Of a DNA stretch of 64,000 nt, positions 37,055 to 64,000 are shown piece after piece. Origin of the DNA: Raillietiella orientalis (Eukaryota); NCBI GenBank assembly GCA_036172245.1, contig JAYWIR010000006.1:3100001-3164000 (forward strand). Direction: 5' to 3'. The notes under the pieces were generated by a model, which was not told the DNA's origin, did not search any database, and saw only the letters and a list, made by a program, of their open reading frames with translations. A program made the translations under genes and the position numbers. How positions within the stretch are numbered: position 1 is the first letter of the stretch; each line of letters begins with the position of its first letter.

Positions 37055-40000
37055 ATGCAACAAAAGCCAGAAGGTTTGGGCTGTTAATTCATTTGAATCA
37101 TGAAGTGGTTGTATCATTTGCAGGATCGACACCAGCAAAAACCTTCTTTGTTGTTCAGGATAATCCAGCAAATGCTCTGGCCCTTAACAAAGATAATTCT
37201 CAGGTTGCAATCGCCGGCAGAAATAGTAAGTTGGAATTTTTTTTTATGCTTGCATATTACTCTTTGCTTACATCTAGTTGAGTGCTTTTTATGTGTGTTG
37301 GTTGCGAGTAGCCTTGTGAGTGTCAGTTAGGTACTGGTGTTTTATTAGTGAATATGAGTGATGCCTACATTATTTGGGGCAGAAAAGTGCAGATGGATGT
37401 TTAACTGAAAAAGGCAACTTCAGTGATATTTGATCTGTGTTCCAGTTTTCAAAGTGTTTTCGATTGAGGAAGACAGCTTCACGGAAAAACTGAACCTAAG
37501 AGTTGGAAAAAATCTGAATTTGAATTTCTCCTGCAATGATGTTGTGTGGAATCATCAGGATGGTTTGTATAGATTTTGATTGTTTTTATTGATTTAATTG
37601 CGTCGTTTGGAATTTTATAAATAAGAAGACAATAAGTTATAAATAATAAACAGAAAAGCATTCTTGTAGAAGACTAATTATCCACTCTACAAATCTATAT
37701 TCAGTAAGAATGCCCAGGTGTGCATTTTTTGATTCCCAGGGCAAGATCTTCATAGGCGTTAATCTGAGTTTAATCTAAGGCATTTAAAAATGTTTGATAT
37801 TGGGTACTTAAAATTTGCAGTGAAGTCTTACAACAATTCGTTTTTGTTCATGACCATTGCTTATTGTGCAATTCATTTGATTTTCATTTCTTAGTTTTAA
37901 GACCAGTACTGTTTTATCTCTTCTGGTATCTCTTCTTTTCCTTGTTTAATATGCAGAAACAATAAATACAACTCTGGTTTAGAAAAATTCTTTCAACTTA
38001 TGTTAAAGTATTAATTGAAATCTGTCTTATGTATACGTGCAATGCTTTTAAAATGCAAATCTGCTAAGGCTCTCAGTTGGCACATTTTCTGACCCAAGGT
38101 TTTCTCAAACAAAAATGTATTCCATTCATACTTTGTCATGGATATATTGTAACTATATTGTAACACACTTTTTGTTTACAAATTGCAAGTATGCAAATGG
38201 AAATTTTACGAAAATAAGTAAGTGTTTCTTTGTAAACAAAGTATTAAATAAAATGCAATATTAAAGTCTCAGCTTTGTGATTTTTTTTGTATGGTGAACC
38301 TACCACATATATTAAACCTTTTCTCCCATGAGAAAGATAAATTTTCTTTTATTGGATCAATGATTTCCTATGTAGAACAGATTTTGGCAAAAATCTAATT
38401 TCAGTCTACCTATAGTAGAAATTCATACACTGATAAAATCAGATGCTGGAAGGTTTTCATTTTAAAACCTTAATTCATCAACACTGTAAATGATTCGAGG
38501 TTGTATACCGAAAACTGTTGAGAAGAACACAATGTATGTCTGTTATATTTAAAAATGCATACAGTTGAAAGGCAGTAGTTGAGATTTATGCTGAATGTGG
38601 GAAATAGTCTGTGAAACATTTATGAAAATGAATTATTCAGAGAATCATTATTTCATCATTCATGAGAAGGAGGAACACTTTTGAATACCAGAGTCTTTCA
38701 GAAATTTCATCCAAGCTTTTGATCTCAAATTTTTCATGTGTACATCATGTAAACTAAAGTTGAAGTTTATAAAATCTCATGTTTTTGAATATCAGAGACT
38801 TTCACGTTGTATTGCTTTCTAGATCAGTTTCTTGCCACTGCAGCAACCAATGGAGCTGTAGTACTTTGGAATTTAAATAAACCATCCCGCTCGAAGCATG
38901 ACATTGTTTTCCAGGCAGGCTGAGGTCATGCTACTGTATCATCATCCACCTTGTGCTGTTGTAGGACCACAAGCGCACTGTCAACAAAGTCAGCTTTCGC
39001 AGCACAGAGGCAAATTCATTGATATCTGGCTCCCAAGATGGCACTATGAAGTATTTTGATCTTCGTATGAAAGAAGCTGTAGCTACATTTTACAGGTAAG
39101 TCTGTCCTTTGTGCACATCCTTTTATCTGCTTTGCAGTCATTCAGGAAGTGTCCGTGATGTGCAGTTCAGCACACACAATATATTCCAGTTTGTTGCTGT
39201 CATAGAAAATGGTACAGTCCAACTTTGGGACATTCGCCGTTCAGACAAATGTGAAAAATCGTTTGCTGCACATTCAGGGCCAGTATTTGCTTGTGACTGG
39301 CATCCTGATGTGAAAGGAATGCTGGCTACAGCTGGAAGAGATAAGTGTATTAAGGTAGGTGTAGGTGTGACAGGATGATAGATAGAATGTGCTTTATCCT
39401 TGTATAGGTATGGGATGTAACTAGCAAGCCTACACCTCTTCACACAGTGCAAACTATTGCTTCTGTAGGGCGTATCCGATGGAGACCAAACAATAAAAAT
39501 CATATAGTTAGTGCTGCTTTGGTGGTGGACTGTAGTGTCAACATCTGGGATATTCGCAGACCATATGTTCCTTTGGCTAGTTTCCAAGAGCACAAGGATG
39601 TAACTACGGGCATTAGTTGGAAAGGTGATCCAGATGTCTTGTTATCTACTAGCAAAGTAACTATGGAATTATAATAATGGATAACAGTTGCAGATTGCAG
39701 GATTGTACTTTATGTCAACATTGCTTTCGGGATGCTGTATGGCATAGAAGTGTGCCAGTTGGTTTAGCCACTAGTATTAGGGGTGAATATTGCATTGCAT
39801 ACAGAGAGCAGCGCTCTTCTGAAACTTCAGGAGGAAAATTCCATGGATGTAACTTATTTCTGAGGTAATCAGTCTACACATTTAGCATAGTAATGAACTG
39901 GACGACATACAGAAAGCCAATAGGATCTGCAGAAAATTTTGTGCAGGCTACTAGCACAATGTTGACCTACCACAGCACATCAGCTGCCTCCAGTGCTAGT

Positions 40001-41241
40001 GAATGGTTATTGCATTCAGCCCAGCATTATCTTTTGGAAGGACGTAGTTTGGCTGATATTTGTGAGCACAATGCTGCTCTTGCAAGACGCTTCAACAGAC
40101 ATCATGTATGGCACACCTGGTGTATCATAAAGCATTTGTATTGCACAACTCCTGTGGACAAGACGAGAGCTAATTCGGGTGCAATAGGCGAGCAAGAGCC
40201 AGCCGAACTCAAAGGTCATTTAACAGGAGATAAGGAAGTGAAAGAAAAAAGTAGTCATGTTGGCACAGCTGATGGTAATGACAGTGATCCAGATGATGTT
40301 GAACCTAAGGCACGGAGTCTCACTCACATAGCTAGGTACTTGAATTCAAAGAGAAAGATGTATCAACAAAATATTATCCAGCGGGACTAGAGGAAAGCAG
40401 GAAGATTTTTTCTTTGGAGAAGGAAGCTTAGATCCTCTTCCCTTGGATACCAGCAATGGATTGGCTAGCACGCAAGAATGGGTCCTGCCTGAAGAAGCAT
40501 TTTATCTTAGACACGAGATTGAAGGTCGCACTCCGCCCCCAGAAAAGTTTGCAACTCCTTTTTTCCCTCACAGCATGGATCTTGGTGAATATTTTATTGC
40601 AGAAGCCTTCCCTCAAATATATTGTCCTTTTAGGAGTAGACAGTGGAGATGAAGAAGAGCTGGATAAAGATGAGCCACCTCTGAAGGTGATACCTCCCCC
40701 AGGTGTTCCCTTATATGACTTGACCAGTTGTGTGCTGGCTGCAGTGCACCATTATGCTGAAGTAGGGGAAATTCAGACTGCTGCCACAGTACTGCTAGTT
40801 GTGGGAGAACACCTGCAAAATTGCATCCCTGAACCTATTCAGGAACATTGGTACCTCTCCTATATTGAACTGTTACATCATTTGGAATTGTGGGATGTGG
40901 CCACTTTGGTTCTTTCCCTGAGTCATTTGCCCCAGATTGAACAGCTTAACCAGCAATCTACCACCTTTCATACTAGTTGCCCACACTGTCACAGAGGCTT
41001 AACACGTCTTGGCTGGCATTGTGAACGGTGCCAGTGTGCCACCAATACATGCAGCGTATGCCACCAACCAGTGCATGGTCTGTATGCTTGGTGCCGTGGT
41101 TGCGCCCATGGAGGACATCTTGCTCATCTCCATGAGTGGTTTCTTAAACACACTGAGTGCCCAACAGGTAAACAGACACATGAATTGGTAGAGGCTTATG
41201 TTTCTTTAGGATGTGGCCATCACTGTTACAACTGGTGCTGA
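37055..41241 (+). CDS. WDR24: GATOR2 complex protein WDR24 (WD40 repeats plus C-terminal zinc-binding/RING-like region), 12 coding exons, about 760 aa
   Basis: Exons assembled in frame: 37055-37073, 37124-37225, 37446-37562, 38823-38914, 38965-39095, 39138-39354, 39408-39656, 39701-39864, 39913-40335, 40382-40584, 40634-41167, 41210-41241 (2283 nt). Recognisable WDR24 motifs: [134 protein letters not shown]. The 19-nt first exon is the least certain part. Confidence 0.95.
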
Positions 41242-41327
41242 GTAGATGAATATATTTCACAAGCCTGGTATGGCTTGGCAGTAATAGCATTTTAATATGC
41301 CCACTTGGGATAATGCAGAGTGTTAAA

Positions 41328-42140
<813 letters not shown>

Positions 42141-42354
42141 ATTAAAGTTTGCTATTTGTCCAACTGCTGTTTTACTATTTTGTGCAACTGACTACAAATA
42201 TTCAATTTAGCATTTTCCTTGAACGGCTATCAGCTAAGGAAGCATTGCACACAAATAAATACAACGATACGATCTTAAGCATCAATATGGTTCCAGAATG
42301 CAATGACACAAAACTAGTTTCACTTAAGGCATAAAGAACCATGCAAATCTACAC

Positions 42355-42387
42355 CTGCAGAAAAGAAAAGAAAAAAAAAAAAAAAAA
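42355..42387 (-). promoter_or_regulatory. Strong splice acceptor of a probable 5' UTR intron of Ral
   Basis: Minus strand reads a long T tract then cttttcttttctgcag|gtgt, about 215 nt upstream of the Ral ATG. Confidence 0.55.
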
Positions 42388-44869
42388 CCAGCGGATACAC
42401 AACGTACAAGCAAACTCAACGTGAGCAAAAGACAATAAATCAAAGCAGGAGATATCAGCACTGGAAAGTCGATTCACCAACGTGTTTTCCCGGTTGTTAT
42501 CTGGACACAACTCCTCCCCACACTCGGGTTCGGCTCGGATCCGTCAAGGGGCCAAGCCCTACGATTCGCCGATAATAATTGTCGGTCGGGAGTGATCGGC
42601 GTCGTTTACTTTTCCTAATTTGCTTTCAGGCATGGAGCATTCGGTTTCCCGAGAGAACTTCCAACTGGCCAGGCTTTTTTTTTTTTTTCTCTCCCCCGGT
42701 CTTTTCCTTCGAGGTGAACGTGCCGATGGAACCGACGGGGATCGATTCTTTTTCGGACTTACGAGAGACAAAATTTTGCAAGTGTCTCGAGGAGCTACAA
42801 GAAACTTTCGAAATGCTATCGGCTCAAAACGTGCAGCATCCCTTGATCCCGACGAGTTGTCTCCGGGGGATGGTAATCCTGCCATTAAAGGGGGGGGGGG
42901 GGGGGGGGGGGAGGAATTCTGCGAAGAAGAAGAAAAAAATGAAGGTTCGGTGGTTCCTTCATCGTGTTAATCCACGGGCATCTCAGGTTTTCGTACGTCT
43001 TGGAAGGAGTGTTTCCTTACCGGACCTTATGAGAACAAAGACAGTTCGTCAGTTCTTTGTCTTTCGGCAGTTTCTCAAGTGCGCCTCTTCAGCACACGAG
43101 AGCGAAATTTTTGCCGAGCCGGCAGCTGGTTGCTCGTGAAGATGGGTGTGTGATTGTGAAGATAATGTACGATATGAAAACGAACACTCACACACTGATA
43201 TGCAGTGGACTCGGAGCTGAACGCAAAGATGATTATGCAAATAAAAAACGGACTGAAATGTCTGATGAACGGACGATCACCAGGAAGCTCCACGCTGCTG
43301 TTTGGAAACGAGCAGAATGAGAACTTTTTGTATTGGCGTTTGACCTTCCGTTTTGGTTCACATTGCATTTCACATCACAATGCTGATTCAAAGTAATAGC
43401 TTGCCAAAAGTAGAGGGCGCAAGCTCTTTTTAAAACCTTCCTTGTCTCGTTGGAATGATCAACGTTCTATCATTTCAAGTCATGAATTCTGCCTGGGAGA
43501 AAACGAAAAACCAACCAACGTTTTCATGATTCGTCCATGTCATACATTAACAAAAAAGGAAAAAACAGACTCCTGAAAACTTAGCCTAATGAATTCAGGT
43601 GTAAAATGTGCAATTGATAAGCAAGCACAATGTGCCTGTAAATGCTACTGTGCCCAATAGCCCTGACTACTGACAGATACTACATTCTGTTCCTCATTTC
43701 ACTTATGCCACATATGATGAAATCCTTCACATAGAGTTCCAATTTCTTCCATAGCACAGTCATTTTTTTTTTTTTTTTTGGAGGAATAATGGTTGACTTA
43801 GCGAGTAATATGCGCTGCAATGCACTCTATGCTGAATGCTAAGCAACTCTGTGACTTACAGGGAGAAGGCATAACCACCAAAAATACTTTCACCTTAAAC
43901 CCGAAGGTTTAAACAGTTCCGTTCTTTGAAAATTTTTCTTTCAGAGGAACACAACGTCCATTAAAAAAATACCTTCTTAACAGATGCTGTGCATTTTTTT
44001 TACACAGCAGCAATCAATGTAAGCGTATAACAACTTTAGAGTGTACACATCGAATGCACTGCTTCTACTCTTGAGTGCTTTCTCTCTAAGAAACTGCTTG
44101 CGTGCTCGCTGGTGTACCGTCCAGAGGTTTTCCAGGATGAACTCCCGTTCAAACCACAGGACAGATGCATTACAGAAGCACTGTGAAGAAAGTACACAGT
44201 TTACCCGCTGTAAGAAACTGATGCTATATATGAGCTGTAGAAGCCGAGTGCAAGAACTTCTTCAGGAGTCTAAAATGGATATTCTAGCTTCCCAGTATTT
44301 TGGAAGATGCCAGTTGCTCCCAGGTAAGCAATTCAGAATCGCCAAGTAGCCACGGGAGTGCAAACCGATTTTTACGATATCGAAAAGAAAAAAAAAATAA
44401 AATCAGCCTCACCAAGAAGTCGTATCTACACACTGCAGGCACGGATGGCTTCCTTCGGTAGTCAGATTGACCGATCTCGGACAAACATGAATCGAAGTGC
44501 ATCGCATAATTTTATAGGAAATTCTAGAAGTGAAGGCTAGAAAGTAGCCTCTGTCAACTGCATGCAATTAAATCATTGTCCATCAACAATGGACGTCATC
44601 GTAATGCATTCAAAAAAAGGCAAAAAAAAAGTGATTCATGACTTTTTATCACGAATTTAGCATGAAAAAACACTTTGAGTATTTCCGATCTTTTGTGGTT
44701 CTCGCCCTCCAGTACAAGGATTCACAAGGAAACCGTGAAATCCAAAGTCTCGAATTTCATCGAACAATTTATTGACATTCTCCAATCATGAGGATTTATC
44801 TTTTGATAGATGCCAGAATTCTCCACAAGCGGTGAAAGGGTTCGGAACGCACTCTCAGCAGCTCGTAAA

Positions 44870-53700: not shown

Positions 53701-55812
53701 TGTACAAGAGTCCTGGACCGGACTTCTGCTCCTCTCTTCCCTCCAAAGAACGCTCCCCCCGCCCGTGGCACCGTTTCGAACCGCTTCGAGAGCGTGTGGG
53801 AAGATCTGCGTGTGGGAGTGGGCATTAGCAGGGGAACTGGTTTCCGCCTGCTGCCCTGCGACAGGACCCGAGTCAGCTGCGTTCCTCCCGTAGGCATCAT
53901 CTCTCCGCAGCATACTTCAGAAGGAGGCGCACCGAGCACGTCGGAAGGCATTTGAGCGAGCCTGAACCAGCCGGAGCACAAACAGCAAGGCAGAAAGAAA
54001 GGCGATCTCAGAGGACGAAGCGAAATTACGGTGAACCCACCCCCGTATAACGCGCGCGAGATAGGTCCCCGCGTTATACGAGCCGTATGGATAACACGAT
54101 AACGTTTGGAAGAGATACCAAGTGCTACTTAAAACGTATACCAGAAGGATATCCATTATTCCACTTCTACACTCACCATTATCAACAGTAAAAATACTAC
54201 CGATATAAGCGTTTATAAACACTATCAGATAGAAATAATCAGTACCGAACTCCTGGGACTCCTGGAACTCCCGATCAATCAACACAGCCAAACACAGTTC
54301 CATAGCCCCCTCACAAATTCCAGGCAACATCATAATTAAAATCTCATATTCATTCCTCGTCGCAATCATCTGAAACAAAGAGGAAAAAGTCAAGAGTGCT
54401 TGTCTATTATAATTGAACTTCGTCGAACACCTTTAGAACTTCGCTGATGCTTAGCCAATTTGAGCAATTCAGTCGTTTCAGCTCCGTCATTCTCCATATC
54501 GAGAGACGCGTCTTCTCGCGCAGTTTGAACAAAATGGAATCCAACCCACTTGAATCACGTGTTCGCATTCTTCTTAAAAGCTGCTGAACGGACGGTGCAC
54601 CACGGAAGTGGAACTTGTCCACGGCGGCGCGCGAGCCGCTCCGCCGTCTTGCACGAGGACGGCCGCTCTCTTCGTCGCGTTGTACGAGGGCTTACCGTAC
54701 AAGTGGAGGCGTATGAAAGCAGAGGCAAAAGAAAAGCGTGTCACGTTTGTCGCTGCCCGCTTACTGCCGTGGTTGGGCGACGGCAGAGGGAAGAGCACCC
54801 ACCGACGGCCATCTCTTGCACAAACGGAAACAGTGAAATGAGAATGAAAAGGCAATGAGGATACGAATTTGCTGCAGGAACCGTGTGGAAGGTTACGAGA
54901 CACATATGCACTAAGGTACAATAAGATACAGATGTGTACGTTTACCCAAAATGCTCGTGAAGAACAATGTGACTCGATGAGGACACCGTTTACTACGGAA
55001 CCAGGGCGGTTCCTCCTGTTCCAAGGTTGGTTTCGGGTGTCCTCGACTTAACTGCCATAGCACCATGTCGTTATGTGCATCATCCGTTCGTTTCCAGATT
55101 GGAAGACGCAAATACGAAATGCGGCTGTATCGAACGCGGTTGTCGCGAGCTCCTGGTCGCAGCGGGCAACTGACCTCTTCGTGTTTCGTTAGGGAAAGTT
55201 TATGCATGTGGGGGGGAGGTAAATGGGGTTCTTGGTCAACAGGGAAATCTCTTTGCGCTGCGAAGCCTTTTCGGCTGCTTACGTGCCAGGAGAGGCCGTA
55301 GCCCCTGGTGACCAACATTTCGGTAAACTAGAGAAAGAGCTCCCTCTAACGAAAGACATTCAGAGATTTTGCACTTTGCTAACATTTGGAGCACCCGCAA
55401 AGAACGACTTAGCTGACACAGTATTACAAAAAGGGTGCAATGACCAAGACAGGGAAGGGGCAAGGCATGCGGCGGTGATTCCAGCAGCTCATTCACAAGT
55501 TCAGAAAGCTACGCCAGCGGCCGTGACCTTGTGCGAAAAGAGTTAGGTAACATCCCAATAGAGTAGCATCTTAAAATCCCTTCATTTTCCTTATGAAGTA
55601 CCTTAAATATGATAATCGTCTCTTGTACTGTGAATCTGGGATTTGTTAAACAAAAAAGCGTTCGCTTACATTCCGTGCAGTCCACTCATACAATTTTGGA
55701 GATAACGTATAGGAGTAATGGATGCCGCTGTGCTCTTTATAACCCGGTTTCCTGTGTACATAATCCACAATACTGATTCATGTAAACATGTAGGGTCACG
55801 AAAATCCATGTA

Positions 55813-56225
55813 CCTCGCTTGCAGCCCTGTGCTGCCTACGCGGGATCGTCGTGGCATGGAGCAAAGCGACGGGAGGATCCAGCGACAGGGATGCCACCGT
55901 GTACGCCACGCGCTTCCTGAGGATGGCGACGCGATGGCCCCATCTGACATCCACCATCCAGCAACAGCTTGCCGGCATCCTCCAGAGGATGACGGACCCT
56001 CTCAGCAGACTGTGATCCCTTCCCGCTCCCCCCCCCCCCAGTTTTGTTAATTTTTTTGTTTTCTTTTTGTTTCGTTCCCCCTCCCCTCTGCTGCCGAGGT
56101 CGACCGCGCCGGTCTGCGCACCGGTAGCCCGGCAAGCTGATACTTTCCAGGGCGTGGCCGGTCCAGTCACAGATTATAGAGGTTTGTTCGGAAGAATAAA
56201 CGTCCCGGCGCAACAGGGTTTCAAT
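55813..56225 (+). mobile_element. 5'-truncated LINE insertion with a 14-bp target-site duplication
   Basis: CGAAAATCCATGTA at 55799-55812 and 56226-56239 flanks sequence homologous to the LINE C-terminus and 3' UTR (tgctgcctacgcgggat..., gccggcatcct, tgatcccttccc); AATAAA at 56195-56200. Confidence 0.85.
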
Positions 56226-57074
56226 CGAAAATCCATGTAGGGTCACGAAGAAGCGCTTCTTCCTTTCCTCGGTTTTCTTCGGTCGTAGGTCGTAGGTCTT
56301 CTTCGGTATCGAAAAACCTGGCACTCAATGGCACAGAAATGGTACGTTTTCTGAATCAAAACCACAGAGAAGATAAAGTGTATACTATATGTAGGGCGTA
56401 TTCTACTTTATGCATCATGTGAATTGTATATGCATCGAGTTGTCGAGTATTATCTTTATTTCCTCAAACCGTGGTTACGTCATGGTCGGGAGATCATCTT
56501 TTTCCCGTTGAAACCGGGCCTTCAAAAGATGCTGGAGTTCCACGTGAAAATTGTGGCTGAATTCATTTATCAAAGGCATGCTCCTCTATTAGTTTCGAGA
56601 AAACACATGTGAACCAACCGAATTACAGTTATTTCTTGTGAGGATAAAGTAAAACTTTAAATCATTACTCATGCAGTAATCATTACTCTGCTAGAGGGGA
56701 CTAAGTTTCAGGCGCCATCACGAATTGCAAAATAAAGGTATTTATAAAATGAAAGATATTGATCCCACATTTTTTGGAAATTTCGGAAATCTTTCTCCTT
56801 GAATCTGCAAATGACACTGAGCAGTAAACAACACACGAAAGTGTACAGTCTCAATTATTGCATCGACAGGATGAAATACATCCCTACGTCATGATGGTCA
56901 TCAGTAGTACTAGTGAATGATCCTTGCGCATTAAGAGATACTTTTCGTGATACGATAGCTAGTGTTTACTTTTTTCAGGGAGTTTGCAAAGCTTCGTATC
57001 TTGTGACATTGTAGGTTGTTTAACACTTTTGAAAAATTTGATTTTCTTCGAGCCCAGTTTCATTTCTTGTCAAA

Positions 57075-58337
57075 ATGGGTGTCCTTAACAATCCAATATT
57101 GAGTAGGAACAGGAGACAGAATGAAATTAACCTCGAAGATCTTGAAGGGTAATAAATATTCTGTACTCAATTTATGTGTTTCTTTTTAACCCAAAATGAA
57201 AACTAGCACGCATTATTATTGATACATTGGTGCAAACATAGTAGCAACCCTTTGAAAGTATTGTTGAACTTTGAGGTTTTAGGCTGTTTATTAGTTGATG
57301 TTATATATTATAGCCTGGAGGATTATTTATACATTCAAGATGACACTGAAGATGAAACGTTATCAAATGAAAACTATCTCATACAAATCAGAAGAAAAAG
57401 AAATAGGAATACACGACATCCTGCAGTTCTGGAAACCACATCCACATTTTCGGGAAGAAAACAAAGCAGAAAGAGGTGTAAAATGTTTGAAAGCGGTAAA
57501 ACAGGTGTATATTTTTGGGCGTAAACTATCAATGTTTGTATTTTCTTATAGTTGCATTTCTTTCTCAAATGGCAGATGAAGATGACTGCAATCGTGAAAT
57601 AGCTATATGTGACTTTATCGAAAACTCAACCTCTGCTTTTTTGCAGCTTATGGAAAATGAGGACTACTTACAGGTAAAATACACACACACACACAATAAA
57701 AACAGGGATTCGAATAATTATTGGGAGGTGCACTTTCAAATTCAAGTGCCCTTGGCAATTTTTATGATTTTATAGTTGCGGGAAGTGTTGGTCTGTTGCA
57801 CAGAGGAGCAGCAGGAAGCCTTGCTTGACATGCATCAGGAAACTACATCATCAGAGCAGAATACTGGGTCTTCAGGGTCTTCTGGAGACTCCAGAAAAAT
57901 TCACCCTGCACTGTCTCCTCAGATGGCATTCCAGACTTTGGACAGGCAGCTACGTAATCTGCTTGCCAGTCGTCACATACCTGTTGTGCGTGGGGAAAGG
58001 TGTTTCCATACTGCAGCAGGCATGTTTTTATAGGGTGTTTTGGATGGCTTGGAAAGTGAACTGACCAGTTTTTTCCTCAAAAATCCAACATCTGTCTTTT
58101 GTTCCCAGCGATTACCTTCATATCATAGACTTCTTCTACATGGTATCTGCCAGTATCATCAACTACTTAGTCACAGTAAGTATGAAAAAAAAAAACAACA
58201 GCAACATTCTATCTCCAAAATGTAAAGGTTTTGGGAAAGGGAAACTCCGTTGGACCAGAGTTTTCAATCCTTGGAGTGACTTCATCCTTCCATCTGTATT
58301 GTTAGCTGAATTGGTTCAAAAGCGATTAAATAGATAG
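57075..58337 (+). CDS. R3HDM4: R3H domain-containing protein (R3HDM4-like), 6 coding exons, about 279 aa
   Basis: Exons 57075-57148, 57314-57495, 57552-57673, 57776-57985, 58034-58175, 58228-58337 join in frame via GT-AG (840 nt). Contains the R3H-associated segment (RKQSRKRCKMFES-VAFL; EEQQEALL; AFQTLDRQLRNLLASRHIPVGVLDGLESELTSFF) and the R3H motif SYHRLLLHGICQY. Confidence 0.88.
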
Positions 58338-58432
58338 GGGTGTACCTATATGGGGGGCAGTGGGGTCTGACAATGCGATTGTGTAGATGATGTGTATACC
58401 CTTTGGGTTCTAGCTTTGTGCCTTTTTGTTTC

Positions 58433-58438
58433 AATAAA
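58433..58438 (+). promoter_or_regulatory. AATAAA polyadenylation signal of the R3H gene, overlapping a candidate 3' splice site (AG 58438-58439)
   Basis: ctttgtgcctttttgtttcAATAAAG|tgctgtgaaaATG, 95 nt after the R3H stop codon. Confidence 0.6.
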
Positions 58439-58449
58439 GTGCTGTGAAA

Positions 58450-59119
58450 ATGAATGAGGAAGTTTCGAGGGTAGCACAGCAGAAGGCCTATCTGGAGAAT
58501 GAAATTCAGCAGGCACAGGCAAAATTGAGAGATTTGAAACAGCAGGGTGTACCCTTATGGACAAAGTCCATGTCATCATCACAGCATCAAAAGAAGTGTC
58601 AGCTTGCCATGGAAAGTTGCCATTTACAAGGTCGAAGAAGAGTACTAGAGGAGCTGCATGCAGTCTGTGGGCGTGAGAGAGTCAACAATTATGGCATTGG
58701 CATCCAGTGTTTCCTAAGGTATTTGCATTGCATCAGAATCCAGAGGCACATCTTGAATCAAATCACAAAGAGTTGGAATATTTGCAGAGCATCAACACAA
58801 AACTAGATAATGAATTAGAAAAGTAAGTGAGGTTTACTTAATAAACAATTTGATTTTTTCCGGATCAAGAGATCAAATTGTTTTCTTGACAAATGCTAGT
58901 ACTCAAAACACGTTCACGCCATCTCTTCATGTTAATTTTATTTTGTTGATATTTAAGAAGTTTGTTGATTTTTGGGGAAACACATTCCAGTCCATAACAC
59001 AGTATTCCTTTAGGTTTAACAAAATGCTGGATTCGTTAGTTTCTCCCTTAAATAAAGCTGCAAGTGTGGGTGAATGTGATGAGATGCTGTTGCGTTTCAC
59101 ATACACTAAGCAGGCAATG
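58450..59119 (+). CDS. Unidentified spliced coiled-coil protein, 3' end unresolved
   Basis: ATG 58450 opens MNEEVSRVAQQKAYLENEIQQAQAKLRDLKQQ...LEELHA; exon 58719-58822 (VFALHQNPEAHLESNHKELEYLQSINTKLDNELE, donor GTAAGT) joins in phase 2 to exon 59014-59119 (KFNKMLDSLVSPLNKAASVGECDEMLLRFTYTKQAM, donor GTAAGT). Heptad-like composition and phase-compatible consensus splice sites; first intron boundaries ambiguous; family not recognised. Confidence 0.7.
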
Positions 59120-60699
59120 GTAAGTCTTCATGGTAATCTGTTTGGATCAGTTCTCATGAATGGTCTGATTTTTTTGACCCTTGCTAGTGTTTATTTCATA
59201 TTCAGTGATGTTGATTCCATGAAGTCTACATCAACACTTGAACTTTAATTTATTGGTAGTATTTTTTTATGACAGCTTTGTAACTTCTGCAAGTCTTGTA
59301 GTTTTAATTTCTACACTCTCTTTTTCTGTTTTCATTGGAGCTGTAAGCTCCAGCAGATAATTAATGAAGTATATTTGAACTCCAAAGCAAGATTACTTTA
59401 TGTAGTGTTCTATCAATGAAGAGTGTAAATACAATATAAGTAGTTTAATGTTCTTATGTATTGTGTAATAATTTGTAGTTGTGTTGTAATTTTCTAAATT
59501 CACCAATAGGCTTGAAAGTCAACAAATTTTAAAAGTAGTATTCTAAAAAAAAAGTCACAGGACAGTTGAGTGCACAGACAAGCTATTGTAAAGTGTTTCC
59601 CACGTAATAAATGAATCTTATATTTTCAAAGCAAGTGGCAAAAAACTGAATGTAGCATGGAGATCCTTACACTGGTTTTTTATTTCCTAGAGGTGCAATC
59701 AACCACGTAACTTCAAGATTTCAATATTGATATGATGAAAAGATTTCATAGGTCGAGTTCAATTATTTTAACATTCATTTCACTTTTCCTATTACAGTGG
59801 TTTGCTAATGTATATTTGCAGTTGGGTTTTATGCAGAGAAATGTTTTTTGTGGATTAAATGCATCCCATTTGTATGATTGCTAGTTCAAAAATTATCCTT
59901 GTCATTGAACTTGGTGTGTATTTATTGTGATACACGAAAGATTTCAGCCGTCTTCTTCTGTAAGTGAATACATCTATTAGAATTCAGCAATGGTATGAAA
60001 TTAGTGGTCACTACAGTACGAAATGCAAGTGGAGTGAATTTAAAGTGAAGGCTTTTGTGGCATAGCCGCTTTTTCTCCATTAGAATATAAGCTGTCGTGT
60101 AGCCTCACATTTGTAAAATCAGACGTCAAAAGTCGTCAGTATAAAAGAGATAGTGTTTATCAACACGAAGCATTGTGGTTTGACAGCGAAGTGTGTGTGT
60201 TGCTCTCCGTAGTTTGTTGCTACTTCCGATTCATTCCAACCTGTGAACTCCTGCAACCCCGAGGCAAATCGCAAGGTTGTGTCATAGGTTGCTTCCTTCA
60301 GGAGTCCATGCCAAGTGTGAGAACAACTGTGCCAATTTGTGCTTCACGTGCTGTTGTGGGTCACAATGAAAGGGAAGCATAGGTGTGCTTCTCTCACCGA
60401 AAAGGATCAGTCAGCACACACCCTAATGGGATCAAGGAATTTGTGCCTCTTTGACCTATAGGGTACGGTTTGGCTTGAAAATGTGCCCAAGAGTGGATTG
60501 TAGCCCTCGTGCACCGAGGAAGTCACTGATCATTGCTAGTTCTGGTACTTATTCGGAGACAGCCGGAAAGGAAGGAATTCTTGCTTACGTACGATTTTCC
60601 AGAAGAGGGTCCTTCTCGGATAACCGGCCAGGTCACGAGTGTCGAAATCTTGTTGAGATGCCGAGCAGAACCGTGGTGTCGGAATTTCAACGGATAGGG

Positions 60700-62775
60700 T
60701 TGCCGGAGAGGAAGAGCCGAACGGACCCCGGTCTCTGCAGCCGTTTCTCCGTCTTTGTAGTTTCGAGTCCTATCCCGAGGAATCTGGACCAGGCAATCAG
60801 CAGATGAGCTCGATCCGGGAAGCGATGATCCATTGCTGAACGTGTCCACTGGTGGATTCTCTCGAAATCGAATACTGAGCGGAGTGTGCATTCCATTGCG
60901 AAATTCTCGAGCGGGGCTGCCTTTATTGAACCCGCGGTGTGTAAACACTGCGGGCTCAATAAATTCTTCTTGCAAGCCACGCAGAGACGAGGGAGGAATT
61001 CTGCCGGTAGTGAAATGAGATCGTTCGGTTGCACTCTGCTGTTGAGAGCGTGCAGCTCAGTGCAAAGGAAGGCTTTGCAGTTGTACAGTCTCCTTCGGTA
61101 GTAGGAGTTTGGCGGCTGATTTGGAATTCGGCTTGCAGTGTGGACGTCAGTCCACTGTTTGGATGATGCTTCCTCTTCCAGTTGCTGTGGCGACGAAACC
61201 GAATTGCTTTCGTTTGACGACCTCAGTGGGTCATTGTAAAATTGAGAGACCTTCCGATTCGGTTCTTGAGGATTTTTTTTTTTTTTTTTCCGATCATCGC
61301 CGTTGCAATTTGCCCAATTGCAGTTATGTGTGATTGTCTGGGTACGGATGGGCTTAAGTTCTTCGTTTCTTTTTGTGTGTGTGTGGACGTAAATCGTAAG
61401 GACGATCCCATTACTTTCTGCCGTGACTCCGTTCATGAAATATTCAAAATTGCTTTTTACTGCAGTAGTACGTAATGGATCCCAAGGATAGGAAAGGAGA
61501 GTGGATCCCGGTGAACACCAATCACAGCACCTCGGCCGACAGACAGCACAGGAAGTTCGTGTTGGTACGACGCCCCGGCCTATTCGGTGAATCTGTCAAA
61601 TGCCGTGGCGTCGATAAAGCAGTCGAAAAAGAAAAAAAAAGAAAAGAAAAAAGGGGGAAAAGCCAGGGATATTTTAATTTTCCCCTTTTCAGGATCTACT
61701 TTGCGATATGCTCCCAAAGCCTCCCGACGGCTTCATACCCCTGAAAGTCTTGCTCAGCGTAAGTAGGTTTTCGCCATTTTCGCTTCCTGCAGATTTCCCG
61801 ACGGCAAAGGAGTCGCCGCAGCTCCGGTCGGGGGGTCTGACCTGTGAAATGTTGTCCTCCGAAACGCGGTCTCAGAGGTGGCTTGTGGAAAATGGCGAGG
61901 AAAGTTTCGGCGGGGTCTCGGACTCTTTTTTTTCTTCTTTTTTCTTAGAAGTCCCCAGAAGTATTTTCATCGTGCAGCAAATTCTTAGATACGGTGCTCG
62001 TTTCGTTGATGGCTGTTCGAAATGTTAAAATGTAGACGGCGCCGCAAGAGGCAGTGTTTCTTCTTTGTTTCCTTTTTTCTTCTTCCTCCCGCCGGAAAAA
62101 AGCTCAAATCGTTTCGAATGAAAACATCTGGTCACGCAGGTTCCGGAACATTTGAAACCATTCTTATGTAAATGAGAATCTTCCTTTGTCATCCAAGTAC
62201 GAGGAAGGAATGGTTCGTCCCCTGAAAGCGAGAGGTTCGATTTTGGTGTATTTGAGGAGTGTATGGCACGCGGTATGTGGGTTTCGAGTATATTTGTAGC
62301 AACTTTTTTTTTTTTTTTTTCTTTTTTTTTTTTTGTTTTTACGGTTTCTGGCCGTTTTTTAACGGCGCCTGGAACCGTAAAAATTCGTGTAGGAACAGCG
62401 CTCCTTTCACGCAGCCAATTCAGGGGCAAATGGCACTTCGGCGTTGTGAGGTACATTTTTCAGCTGCAGCATCAGCAAAGAGCCCTGCAAAGAGTTCGCA
62501 AAGCAGCGAAAACATTCGAAATCGATGTGTTTTCGCAGACACGTGCGGCTCTTGCACGACAGAATCCCGAAACTGCATGTCGTGGATGCTGCGCGCTGGT
62601 ACAGCGGACAGCTTACCGTGGTTACGGTCCAAAGCAAACACTCCTTGCGAGGATGCGGTAGCTGATCTTTCGGCGCCGCCGTCACGTGCAGTGGCGCGTG
62701 CGTGCGTGCTCTGCCCTGGCCGGATAAGCGTGCCCTGCGAACGGACTCCACGGAGATGGAGCCTCATCCGCTTAC

Positions 62776-62807
<32 letters not shown>

Positions 62808-63150
62808 GTAGAGTAGGTGTGCCTTACGTGCTCTCTTGATTTCGTTTTTCCTCTCCCGACGATGCCGTGCCTCCTCCCATTCGGAGCCAAAGCACCCCGC
62901 GAGGTTCTGTGCGTTTCGCATTTCCGCCCCTGCGGGTTGCCCGCCGAGGACACGTCGGGTCGCGCAAATGCGACCGCGGTGTTCGCGGAACCTCAGCGGC
63001 AGCGTTGGGGCTCAAAAAGAGATGCCACATCAGGCGTTTGCGATCCCACAATGGGATTCTGTGCAAGAGGGACGATGGTCGAACACTGCCCGAGCAAAAA
63101 TCATTTTGGCGTGACGCGCAGCTGTGTTTGCAGCCTTCGCTGTTTCCGTT
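60700..63150 (-). mobile_element. Decayed hAT-superfamily transposase
   Basis: In order on the minus strand: ARDGGAE...QGV (resembles DGAxxMxG..GV), FRCFANSLQ (resembles HCxAHxLNL), PNSYYRRRLY, TLRSVFDFERIHQWTRSAMDHRF..AHLLI (resembles ERSFSxLxRIKTxLRSTMxxxRLxxLxLL, hAT dimerisation domain). Interrupted by unrelated DNA. Confidence 0.65.
62776..62806. repeat. (GT)n microsatellite
   Basis: Direct observation. Confidence 0.95.
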
Positions 63151-63495
63151 GCTGGGAAAGCGCGTTTCAATGTACGGCACTTTTTTTTTTTTTGGTACAG
63201 TTGGATGGAAGACGGGAGTTACGTGCATCCGAGAGATCCGAGGATGGATTTTGCCTGCATCTGTTTACTTTTGTTTGCAAGCATCCGGGGAAGGGGGGGG
63301 GGGACGAAATTCGCAAAGAGAGGAATCGTGCCCTTAAGAATCGGTGCAGACACCCCACGCATCCCCCGCGTGCCCGATAGCCAAGTTCGTAAGCGCTAAT
63401 GACACGTGCTGGAAGGCAAACCTTTTCTTTTTTTTTTTTTTAAAAAAAAAAAAAAAAGAAGTGCGTTTGCCGTAACTGATTGTAGCGGATGCTTT

Positions 63496-63521
63496 TATAT
63501 ATATATATATATATATATATA
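63496..63521. repeat. (TA)n microsatellite
   Basis: Direct observation. Confidence 0.95.
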
Positions 63522-64000
63522 ATATGGGGGCTTCCGAGTTGAGGGTGTGAAAATGATGGGCCCCCTCCACGTTGCTCATCATCCGCGGAAGATCGGATTT
63601 GAACCATATAGAAACGAAAAACCTGAACCACTTGGCGTAGGGCTGAACCGATTTGTTTTCAGCATCCTTTCACTTAATTATGTGCACTTGGTAGTTCTTA
63701 CGAGTGGTTTCTGTTATGCCATTTCTCCACCGCGTAAGGACGGCTTGTGCATTGTACTAATGAACATTGGACAGCGTGTTGACATCGTTGGCGTAATGTA
63801 CTTTTCCATCCTGTGGGACACAGAAATTAAGTTCTTTCTGTGTTAACGTTATCCATGATTGGGTGTGCGTAGCATGCTCCAGTGTTTCTTTCGCTGTAAT
63901 CTGATGCTGATGCATCTCAGCTGTTGCTCATTGGATCGTGTTTTTTTTTTTTTTTTTTTTCTTTCCTTTTTTGTCCCCGTGATGACGTAACATATTTCTC

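What the first reader, a model, noticed from the sequence alone, without database searches (positions are those of the whole stretch)
57075..59119. Two tandem genes joined by one element that is both a poly(A) signal and a candidate splice acceptor
Seen: the R3H gene stops at 58337; its AATAAA (58433-58438) ends a pyrimidine tract and supplies the A of an AG (tttttgtttcAATAAAG|t); the ATG of a second spliced coiled-coil ORF lies only 11 nt after the hexamer, about where cleavage would occur. There is no room for a separate promoter and 5' UTR. Also seen: R3H exon 1 ends in phase 2 (GAA GG|gt, 57148) and would join 58440 in frame (..EDLEG-AVK-MNEEV..), whereas the phase 0 and phase 1 donors hit stops. 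Established: nematode SL1-type operons place the upstream 3'-end signal next to the downstream trans-splice site, and SL trans-splicing exists in some crustaceans. Inference: a bicistronic unit resolved by competition between polyadenylation and splicing (shared first exon, shared UTR exon, or SL trans-splicing), giving mutually exclusive products.
Basis: partly seen in the sequence, partly recalled or inferred. Interest (0 to 1): 0.72.

Follow-up and report, generated by a model that had tools for sequence, protein, structure and literature searches.

The report
R3HDM4 and CENP-K share one promoter
In a crustacean- or insect-type genome, a chromosome-segregation gene (probably CENP-K) starts 112 bases behind an unrelated RNA-binding gene and seems to lack its own promoter, so the two are probably made from one transcript by alternative splicing, an arrangement known from flies but untested here with RNA.

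Summary
All coordinates check out: stop 58337, AATAAA 58433-38, AG 58438-39, ATG 58450. The hexamer is above chance (132 of 5000 shuffles). The AG is a poor acceptor: 5 of 47 true acceptors score lower, it has no branch-point motif, and a rival AG at 58413 is as good. The dual-use element is therefore unproven.

New here: (1) Gene 2 is probably CENP-K. The only CENP-K match in the genome is a terminal exon 6.6 kb downstream, beyond the window, in matching phase. (2) One CpG-poor domain covers both genes with no promoter-like rise at gene 2 (7 downstream versus 17 first genes, p=2e-4). (3) A leader exon (donor 56342) lies upstream of both. In two other pairs of this genome, the upstream gene's first exon carries the ATG that the downstream gene lacks.

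Best reading (0.45): one promoter, with cis-splicing of a shared 5' exon either into R3HDM4 or past it into CENP-K, competing with poly(A) use. Spliced-leader operon: 0.27; no SL RNA gene was found. No RNA test was possible. The scan noted about ten similar pairs elsewhere in this genome; I re-found six.

The parts
56328..56341 (+). 3' end of a candidate shared leader exon, holding two ATGs (56328, 56339); donor GT at 56342
   Evidence: Only donor of 2.5 bits or more between 55800 and 57149 (4.5 bits); lies in the CpG-rich zone, o/e 1.2-1.3. Inferred, no RNA.
56342..56978 (+). candidate 5' leader intron ending in a very strong acceptor (G at 56978)
   Evidence: 6.7 bits, above 46 of 47 true acceptors, TRAY at -28
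57075..57148 (+). R3HDM4-like coding exon 1 (phase-2 donor 57149)
57314..57504 (+). R3HDM4-like exon 2
   Evidence: frame-compatible splice sites
57552..57673 (+). R3HDM4-like exon 3
57776..57985 (+). R3HDM4-like exon 4 (R3H-assoc)
   Evidence: PF13902 E 3.9e-4, below curated cut-off
58034..58175 (+). R3HDM4-like exon 5 (R3H domain)
   Evidence: PF01424 E 2.7e-5, below curated cut-off
58228..58337 (+). R3HDM4-like last exon with stop; ATTAAA at 58325-58330 is an alternative poly(A) hexamer
58338..58449 (+). 112-nt spacer with four short upstream ORFs
58412..58413 (+). rival acceptor AG (TAG, branch-like TRAY at -23)
   Evidence: 0.0 bits
58433..58439 (+).
   Evidence: hexamer in 132 of 5000 shuffles; acceptor -0.8 bits, no branch motif
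58450..58672 (+). gene 2 (probable CENP-K) first coding exon, helix-rich
   Evidence: codon model favours this frame; single copy; no direct family match
58708..58822 (+). gene 2 exon 2; needs a 35-nt intron 58673-58707 with weak sites
59014..59119 (+). gene 2 exon 3, strong phase-0 donor at 59120
   Evidence: donor 5.8 bits
61693..61758 (+). gene 2 candidate penultimate exon, phase 0/0
   Evidence: acceptor 6.8 bits, joint best of 67 in the gap; best phase 0/0 exon of 31 open candidates
61759..64000 (+). in-window part of the last intron of gene 2; it continues past the window end to the CENP-K terminal exon at G000:C6:3165696-3165845 (L043:1696-1845, about 1.7 kb beyond the window), which has AATAAA 15 nt after its stop
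   Evidence: terminal exon: only match of PF11802 in the genome; Pfam E 3.6e-4, sole family; only PDB hits are CENP-K
57000..59900 (.). continuous CpG-depleted domain spanning both genes
   Evidence: o/e 0.12-0.39 at 58300-58700 versus 1.1-1.3 at 56100-56500

Best explanation
One promoter at about 56.2-56.3 kb drives a single pre-mRNA that yields either of two unrelated mRNAs by cis-splicing. Route A: the leader donor (56342) joins the strong acceptor at 56978, the six R3HDM4 exons are spliced, and the RNA is cut after AATAAA 58433 (about 58450-58465), which removes CENP-K from that molecule. Route B: the leader donor (or the phase-2 exon 1 donor) skips all of R3HDM4 and joins a weak acceptor in the spacer (58413 or 58439); splicing continues through 59119, 61693-61758 and the terminal exon beyond the window, giving a CENP-K mRNA as the minor product. 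Shown from DNA: the signals, the phases, the CENP-K terminal exon, the CpG footprint and two same-genome precedents. Inferred: promoter position, every splice junction, use of the hexamer, which spacer AG is used, and that exons 58450-59119 belong to the CENP-K terminal exon.
For: No promoter-type CpG rise at gene 2: o/e in the 500 nt before the start is 0.18-0.52 for 7 downstream genes and 0.48-1.21 for 17 first or independent genes, Mann-Whitney p=2e-4. A leader donor/acceptor pair exists upstream of both genes. Precedent in this genome: MMAA and CCDC134 have no ATG of their own, and each upstream gene carries ATG|GTAAGT at its 5' end in the required phase 0, in PAM16 as its ATG exon and 7 nt inside the inferred first coding exon of the PI3K gene. 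ATGGTRAG occurs 14 times in 343,016 nt, about 0.0024 per 60-nt window. Both the leader ATG 56328 and exon 1 are in frame with gene 2 via 58440. Four short ORFs in the spacer argue against simple reinitiation. The arrangement is known in Drosophila (PMC4528330 passages).
Against: No RNA junction was seen. Both spacer acceptors are weak (0.0 and -0.8 bits) against a far stronger competitor at 56978. The in-frame joins carry little weight (1 in 3 for one ATG, about 2 in 3 for two). Donors of 3 bits or more occur about once per kb, so an upstream donor is expected by chance. The 500 nt before downstream genes is coding DNA of the upstream gene, so low CpG is partly expected, and two first genes (0.48, 0.51) overlap the downstream range. 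VHL exon 1 is not in frame with the RUVBL1 acceptor (my reading), so a shared coding exon is not general. The PI3K first exon has no Pfam match; its assignment is inferred. An unchecked scan note reports a leader 'from elsewhere' on CNBP in this genome (e1-7631493).
Confidence: 0.45

Rival explanations
1. Spliced-leader operon. A short leader RNA encoded elsewhere is trans-spliced onto 58413 or 58439 (and onto 56978), as in C. elegans SL1-type or Ciona operons with little or no intercistronic DNA.
For: 112-nt spacer with a hexamer beside the acceptor, as in SL1-type operons (PMC1488885 passages). Six other tight pairs; 5 of 6 have an acceptor of 3.3 bits or more within 30 nt of the start, against 4% of 157 null windows at 4 bits or more (pairs chosen from earlier notes, hence biased). 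The host looks pancrustacean, and SL splicing occurs in amphipods and calanoid copepods. Unchecked note e1-7631493 reports RNA with a foreign leader on CNBP.
Against: No SL RNA gene found: Rfam SL1 0 hits; donor+Sm pattern 121 matches against 95 controls, and none of the 8 examined was SL-like; nothing beside 8 of 43 5S genes; no orphan gene behind a U5 upstream motif in 7 loci; amphipod leader core 0 hits. These tests have low power. The 56978 acceptor has a partner donor. None of 5 downstream genes with their own ATG is in frame with its acceptor (offsets 2, 4, 5, 10, 23), so a leader ending in AUG is not favoured, and the two ATG-less genes are explained in cis.
Confidence: 0.27
2. CENP-K has its own small promoter inside the last R3HDM4 exons or the spacer (overlapping genes); the AG after the hexamer is incidental.
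For: The acceptor at 58439 is no better than chance. A T-rich stretch before AATAAA is ordinary for a poly(A) signal (recalled). ATG 58450 has A at -3, like 10 of 16 starts examined. Drosophila has 3'UTR/5'UTR overlaps that FlyBase treats as unremarkable.
Against: CpG o/e is 0.12-0.39 across 58300-58700, among the lowest in the locus, whereas the 5' ends of R3HDM4, WDR24 and RalA are near 1.
Confidence: 0.11
3. A mature dicistronic mRNA. Read-through of the hexamer keeps both ORFs on one mRNA, and CENP-K is translated by internal entry or reinitiation, as at Drosophila dicistronic loci.
For: Poor downstream element after 58433 (T 0.15, 4 GT/TG in 40 nt). The 112-nt gap lies within the -34 to 319 nt range of exclusively polycistronic fly loci. 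One CpG domain.
Against: Four ATG-initiated short ORFs in the spacer. It cannot explain the ATG-less downstream genes of this genome.
Confidence: 0.1
4. Exons 58450-59119 are not the front of CENP-K but a separate small or decayed coiled-coil gene, so the CENP-K pairing is mis-drawn.
For: No tool ties these exons to CENP-K or to any family. The model needs a 35-nt intron with weak sites. Stop-free runs of 112 codons occur in 5,670 nt of non-coding DNA. The distal introns are CpG-rich.
Against: The terminal exon needs about 200 upstream residues. No helix-rich open frame exists between 59120 and the terminal exon (EKQLAM fraction 0.19-0.37, against 0.49-0.55 for the three exons). Phases 0-0-0 match, and the joined length is 220 aa against a 263-position profile.
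Confidence: 0.07

Closest known systems
Drosophila gene pairs sharing a promoter and 5' exon(s), e.g. Ip259/RpS27A; 130 genes share non-coding 5' exons, 10 pairs and one triplet share a start (PMC4528330, passages)
   Same: Unrelated same-strand genes, one promoter, alternative splicing of a common 5' exon.
   Different: No transcript evidence here. In this genome the layout recurs with 42-167 nt gaps (7 pairs), and in two pairs the downstream gene appears to borrow its ATG.
Cholinergic locus and Su(var)3-9/eIF2gamma (PMC2776167 passages; PMC1435931 abstract)
   Same: [quoted passage not shown]
   Different: Su(var)3-9 is an exon inside an eIF2gamma intron; here a whole six-exon gene would be skipped and its poly(A) signal sits at the second gene's acceptor.
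C. elegans SL1-type operons and Ciona intercistron-less operons (PMC1488885, passages)
   Same: 3'-end signal next to the downstream acceptor, mutually exclusive products; AATAAA is present in the three characterised SL1-type operons.
   Different: They need an SL RNA and an unpaired acceptor. No SL RNA gene was found, and the cleavage site here would fall downstream of the AG, over the second ATG.
CENP-K (Pfam PF11802; PDB chains 7pb4_K, 28op_K)
   Same: The terminal exon matches profile positions 213-254 and chain residues 220-255.
   Different: Model about 40 aa shorter; N-terminal exons not matched by any tool; score below the Pfam cut-off for the single exon.

Membership tests
SL-resolved operon (SL1-type / Ciona type) | An SL RNA gene (leader exon, donor, Sm site) in the genome | tested here: inconclusive
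   None found in five low-power searches
SL-resolved operon (SL1-type / Ciona type) | Non-genomic leader on the downstream mRNA | not testable with these tools
   No run could be listed; the old CNBP retrocopy was uninformative
SL-resolved operon (SL1-type / Ciona type) | Genuine unpaired acceptor before the downstream ATG | tested here: inconclusive
   Two weak candidates, 0.0 and -0.8 bits; upstream donors exist
SL-resolved operon (SL1-type / Ciona type) | Same strand, very short gap, poly(A) hexamer at the acceptor | tested here: met
   112 nt; hexamer in 132 of 5000 shuffles
Shared-5'-exon gene pair (alternative operon) | Downstream gene lacks its own promoter | tested here: met
   By CpG proxy only: p=2e-4, 7 versus 17 genes
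Shared-5'-exon gene pair (alternative operon) | Upstream exon with a donor able to reach both genes | tested here: met
   Donor 56342 (4.5 bits) and exon 1 donor 57149; expected by chance at about one per kb
Shared-5'-exon gene pair (alternative operon) | Both splice forms seen in RNA | not testable with these tools
   No run could be listed
CENP-K | C-terminal CENP-K block | tested here: met
   PF11802 E 3.6e-4, 20.6 bits, below cut-off 27.2; only PDB hits are CENP-K, E 0.044 and 0.16; sole genome match
CENP-K | N-terminal long helical region homologous to CENP-K | tested here: inconclusive
   Helix-rich and in phase, but no match exon by exon
R3HDM4 | R3H-assoc domain followed by an R3H domain | tested here: met
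   PF13902 E 3.9e-4 and PF01424 E 2.7e-5 on single exons, both under cut-off; the name R3HDM4 for this architecture is recalled

The most novel reading that the evidence does not exclude
This pancrustacean organises many unrelated housekeeping genes, here R3HDM4 and the kinetochore gene CENP-K, in true operons resolved by an undescribed spliced leader, alongside cis 'ATG-borrowing' units, with a poly(A) hexamer and trans-splice site overlapping as a switch. I found no description of SL-resolved operons in arthropods in six literature searches (listings only). The copepod and amphipod papers contain the word 'operon' 0 times.
Probability: 0.27. Interest if true: 0.75.

Novelty: new member of a known kind. 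Interest (0 to 1): 0.45.

Why it matters
If the cis model holds, the supply of a kinetochore protein depends on a splice-versus-poly(A) choice inside an unrelated gene's transcript. The genome would also use shared 5' exons, even borrowed start codons, for unrelated housekeeping genes at seven or more loci, which affects annotation and ideas on how operon-like packing arises without spliced leaders. If the SL model holds, it would extend operons to arthropods. The CENP-K identification also adds a divergent arthropod member of the inner kinetochore. One long-read or 5'-RACE data set would decide all the pairs at once.

Tried and rejected
RNA: no RNA holder was listed for 56900-59700, so no reads could be laid; this is no evidence either way.

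Gene 2 identity: exon-wise searches gave nothing usable. The one representative hit, P0002, is a repetitive protein without a clear family. Three families were tried as leads from recall: CENP-H and HAUS2 hit elsewhere at E 8.3 and 0.5; CENP-K hit here. R3HDM4 exon 4 found no homologue among 70 candidates.

Motif as a genome-wide signal: pyrimidines + AATAAAG + ATG gave 61 matches against 35 reversed controls, with nested duplicates; the pattern did not fit this site, and none of the 25 loci inspected looked like a gene start.

SL RNA gene hunts: SL1 model; donor+Sm pattern (8 of 121 examined; the multi-copy hit is mitochondrial-like DNA); 5S neighbourhoods; snRNA promoter route (top U2 copies were 5'-truncated and U1 flanks shared no motif with U5); amphipod core; CNBP retrocopy 5' flank. 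All negative and of low power. A leader ending in AUG was considered and is not favoured (0 of 5 in frame, chance 0.13).

Comparison pairs: 6 of 7 sought were found; the Ku80 search found nothing. Of 20 LSM matches, 11 starts were used; the rest had no start I could place or were duplicates. My ab initio parser mis-spliced R3HDM4, so it was used only as a guide and introns were curated by eye.

Full report
Setting. The window lies on contig C6 of a 210-Mb assembly. Introns are mostly 40-60 nt. The WDR24 gene in the window has its best matches in a horseshoe crab, a spider, a millipede and insects at 42-50% identity. A nuclear copy of mitochondrial DNA has tRNA-Leu(taa) between cox1 and cox2, the pancrustacean order (criterion recalled). 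So the host is probably a crustacean or hexapod without close sampled kin.

Observation. The R3H gene has six coding exons with compatible phases and weak R3H-assoc and R3H matches, the R3HDM4 architecture (name recalled). Stop 58337, AATAAA 58433-38, AG 58438-39 and ATG 58450 are as stated. Exon 1 joins 58440 in frame and the other donors do not. The hexamer appears in 132 of 5000 shuffled spacers, so it is probably selected, although its downstream element is poor and an ATTAAA overlaps the last codons at 58325. The AG is unconvincing. On a matrix from 47 curated acceptors it scores -0.8 bits; 5 of 47 score lower, 136 of 472 decoy AGs and 35% of 157 null windows reach it, and AAG is used by 3 of 47. 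It has no TRAY or TNAY motif (21 and 35 of 47 true sites have one; 160 of 481 arbitrary AGs have TRAY) and one A in -35..-15. The AG at 58413 scores 0.0 with a TRAY at -23. The dual-use element is thus one of two weak candidates.

Gene 2. Exon-wise searches found nothing. A codon model trained on 1,926 codons favours the ATG frame to 58671, then 58708-58822 and 59014-59119; the model needs a 35-nt intron. Of three families tried from recall, CENP-H and HAUS2 did not hit here. The CENP-K profile gave one match in the genome (2 candidates scored, E 0.42), 6.6 kb downstream on the same strand and 1.7 kb beyond the window end. That exon gives PF11802 as its only family (E 3.6e-4, below cut-off) and only CENP-K chains in the PDB, and has AATAAA 15 nt after its stop. 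An exon at 61693-61758 has the joint-best of 67 acceptors in the gap and is phase 0/0. The joined model is 220 aa, and no other helix-rich frame lies between. Gene 2 is most likely CENP-K; the link of its front exons to the terminal exon is inferred.

One unit or two. CpG o/e is a proxy for germline methylation of gene bodies (PMC5915941, passages). It is 1.1-1.3 at 56100-56500, falls from 57000 and stays at 0.12-0.39 across the start of gene 2; the 5' ends of WDR24 and RalA are near 1. Seven downstream genes have 0.18-0.52 in the 500 nt before the start, 17 first or independent genes 0.48-1.21 (p=2e-4). Against over-reading: the downstream windows are coding DNA of the upstream gene, two first genes overlap the low range, and the distal CENP-K introns are CpG-rich again.

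A leader exon. R3HDM4 has an acceptor at 56978 that beats 46 of 47 true sites, and the only donor of 2.5 bits or more between 55800 and 57149 is at 56342. The ATG at 56328 before this donor is in frame with gene 2 via 58440 and makes a 13-codon upstream ORF in the R3HDM4 form; via 58414 both leader ATGs give short ORFs that end before 58450. These frame matches carry little weight.

Same-genome comparison. Earlier scan notes listed tight pairs. I re-found 6 of 7 sought: VHL-RUVBL1, PAM16-MMAA, REXO4-CNBP, PGAP1-STRAP, UTP23-NAXD and PI3K-CCDC134, with gaps of 42-167 nt (domains confirmed; the names CNBP, STRAP, REXO4, UTP23 and PI3K class II rest on domains plus recall and the notes). Five of six have an acceptor of 3.3 bits or more within 30 nt of the start, a biased sample. 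None has hexamer and AG overlapping; one has AATAAA 17 nt before the AG and three have no hexamer. MMAA and CCDC134 begin at an acceptor without an ATG. PAM16 has an ATG|GTAAGT exon about 3 kb upstream, and the inferred first exon of the PI3K gene holds ATG|GTAAGT 7 nt after its own ATG. Both are in the phase the downstream gene needs. The background rate is 14 in 343,016 nt, a set that includes this site. This is the best DNA evidence that cis-splicing past a whole gene is used in this genome. It does not fit VHL-RUVBL1 as a shared coding exon.

Spliced leader. Five searches found no SL RNA gene, all of low power because leaders are lineage-specific. An intronless CNBP retrocopy at about 70% identity has a 5' flank that matches nothing else. 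One unchecked note claims RNA evidence of a foreign leader on CNBP (e1-7631493); I confirmed its DNA layout but not the RNA. SL splicing is documented in calanoid copepods (PMC4664967, passages and section 4), and leader sequences are listed for an amphipod (PMC5111886, passages), so the rival stays at 0.27.

Mechanism. Most likely one promoter near 56.3 kb and one pre-mRNA. Weak spacer acceptors predict that CENP-K is the minor product (inference).

Comparison with known systems. It works like Drosophila pairs that share a promoter and 5' exons (130 genes; 10 pairs and a triplet share a start; PMC4528330, passages), the cholinergic locus (PMC2776167, passages) and Su(var)3-9/eIF2gamma (PMC1435931, abstract). 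It resembles SL1-type and Ciona operons in layout (PMC1488885, passages), but membership cannot be claimed without a leader. Also read as passages: PMC7986045, PMC12460157, PMC7668243, PMC12678787. Douris et al. was seen only as a reference entry. No supplements were read; the FlyBase supplementary lists could show whether these pairs have fly counterparts.

Verdict. A real, tightly packed and probably single-promoter pair; the second gene is probably CENP-K; the dual-use element is unproven. New member of a known kind, interest 0.45; 0.75 if the spliced-leader reading (0.27) proves true.

Noticed in passing
G000:C33 about 101-139 kb and 273 kb (L173, L174): Repeats with an 18.3-kb period holding decayed mitochondrial DNA (cox1, tRNA-Leu, cox2, atp6, cox3 and further tRNAs) interleaved with GC-rich DNA: a tandemly amplified NUMT or an assembly artefact.
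   Followed up: partly
window 37100-42400: WDR24 (+) and RalA (-) converge with stops about 85 nt apart; RalA has a strong acceptor about 220 nt upstream of its ATG. Several LSM genes also have close convergent neighbours.
   Followed up: partly
L166:4290-4306 (-), G000:C15: ATG|GTAAGT inside the inferred first coding exon of the PI3K gene, in the phase needed to give CCDC134, about 9 kb downstream, its missing start codon.
   Followed up: partly
G000:C22:3060295-3061055 (L163): Intronless decayed CNBP retrocopy, about 70% identical, with what looks like a partial duplication of its 5' part.
   Followed up: partly
L128/L157, G000:C28 near 1418.0 kb: LSM2 coding sequence starts at an acceptor with no adjacent ATG exon and with largely CpG-poor DNA for about 4 kb upstream; its start exon was not identified.
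   Followed up: partly
window 55787-55812 and 56226-56249: Two exact repeats (16 and 14 nt) 430-450 nt apart upstream of the candidate leader exon, containing GGTCAC, which recalls a fly core-promoter motif (motif recalled).
   Followed up: no
window 59348-59368: Possible 7-codon phase 0/0 micro-exon of gene 2; both sites are weak (-3.3 and 0.8 bits).
   Followed up: partly
L085-L092; G000:C24, C40: The eight top U2 matches all lack the U2 5' end; 5S genes often occur as inverted pairs 1.2-1.7 kb apart.
   Followed up: no
L153 4600-4640; L156 6740-6790: The acceptors before NAXD and STRAP are directly followed by donor-like sequence.
   Followed up: no
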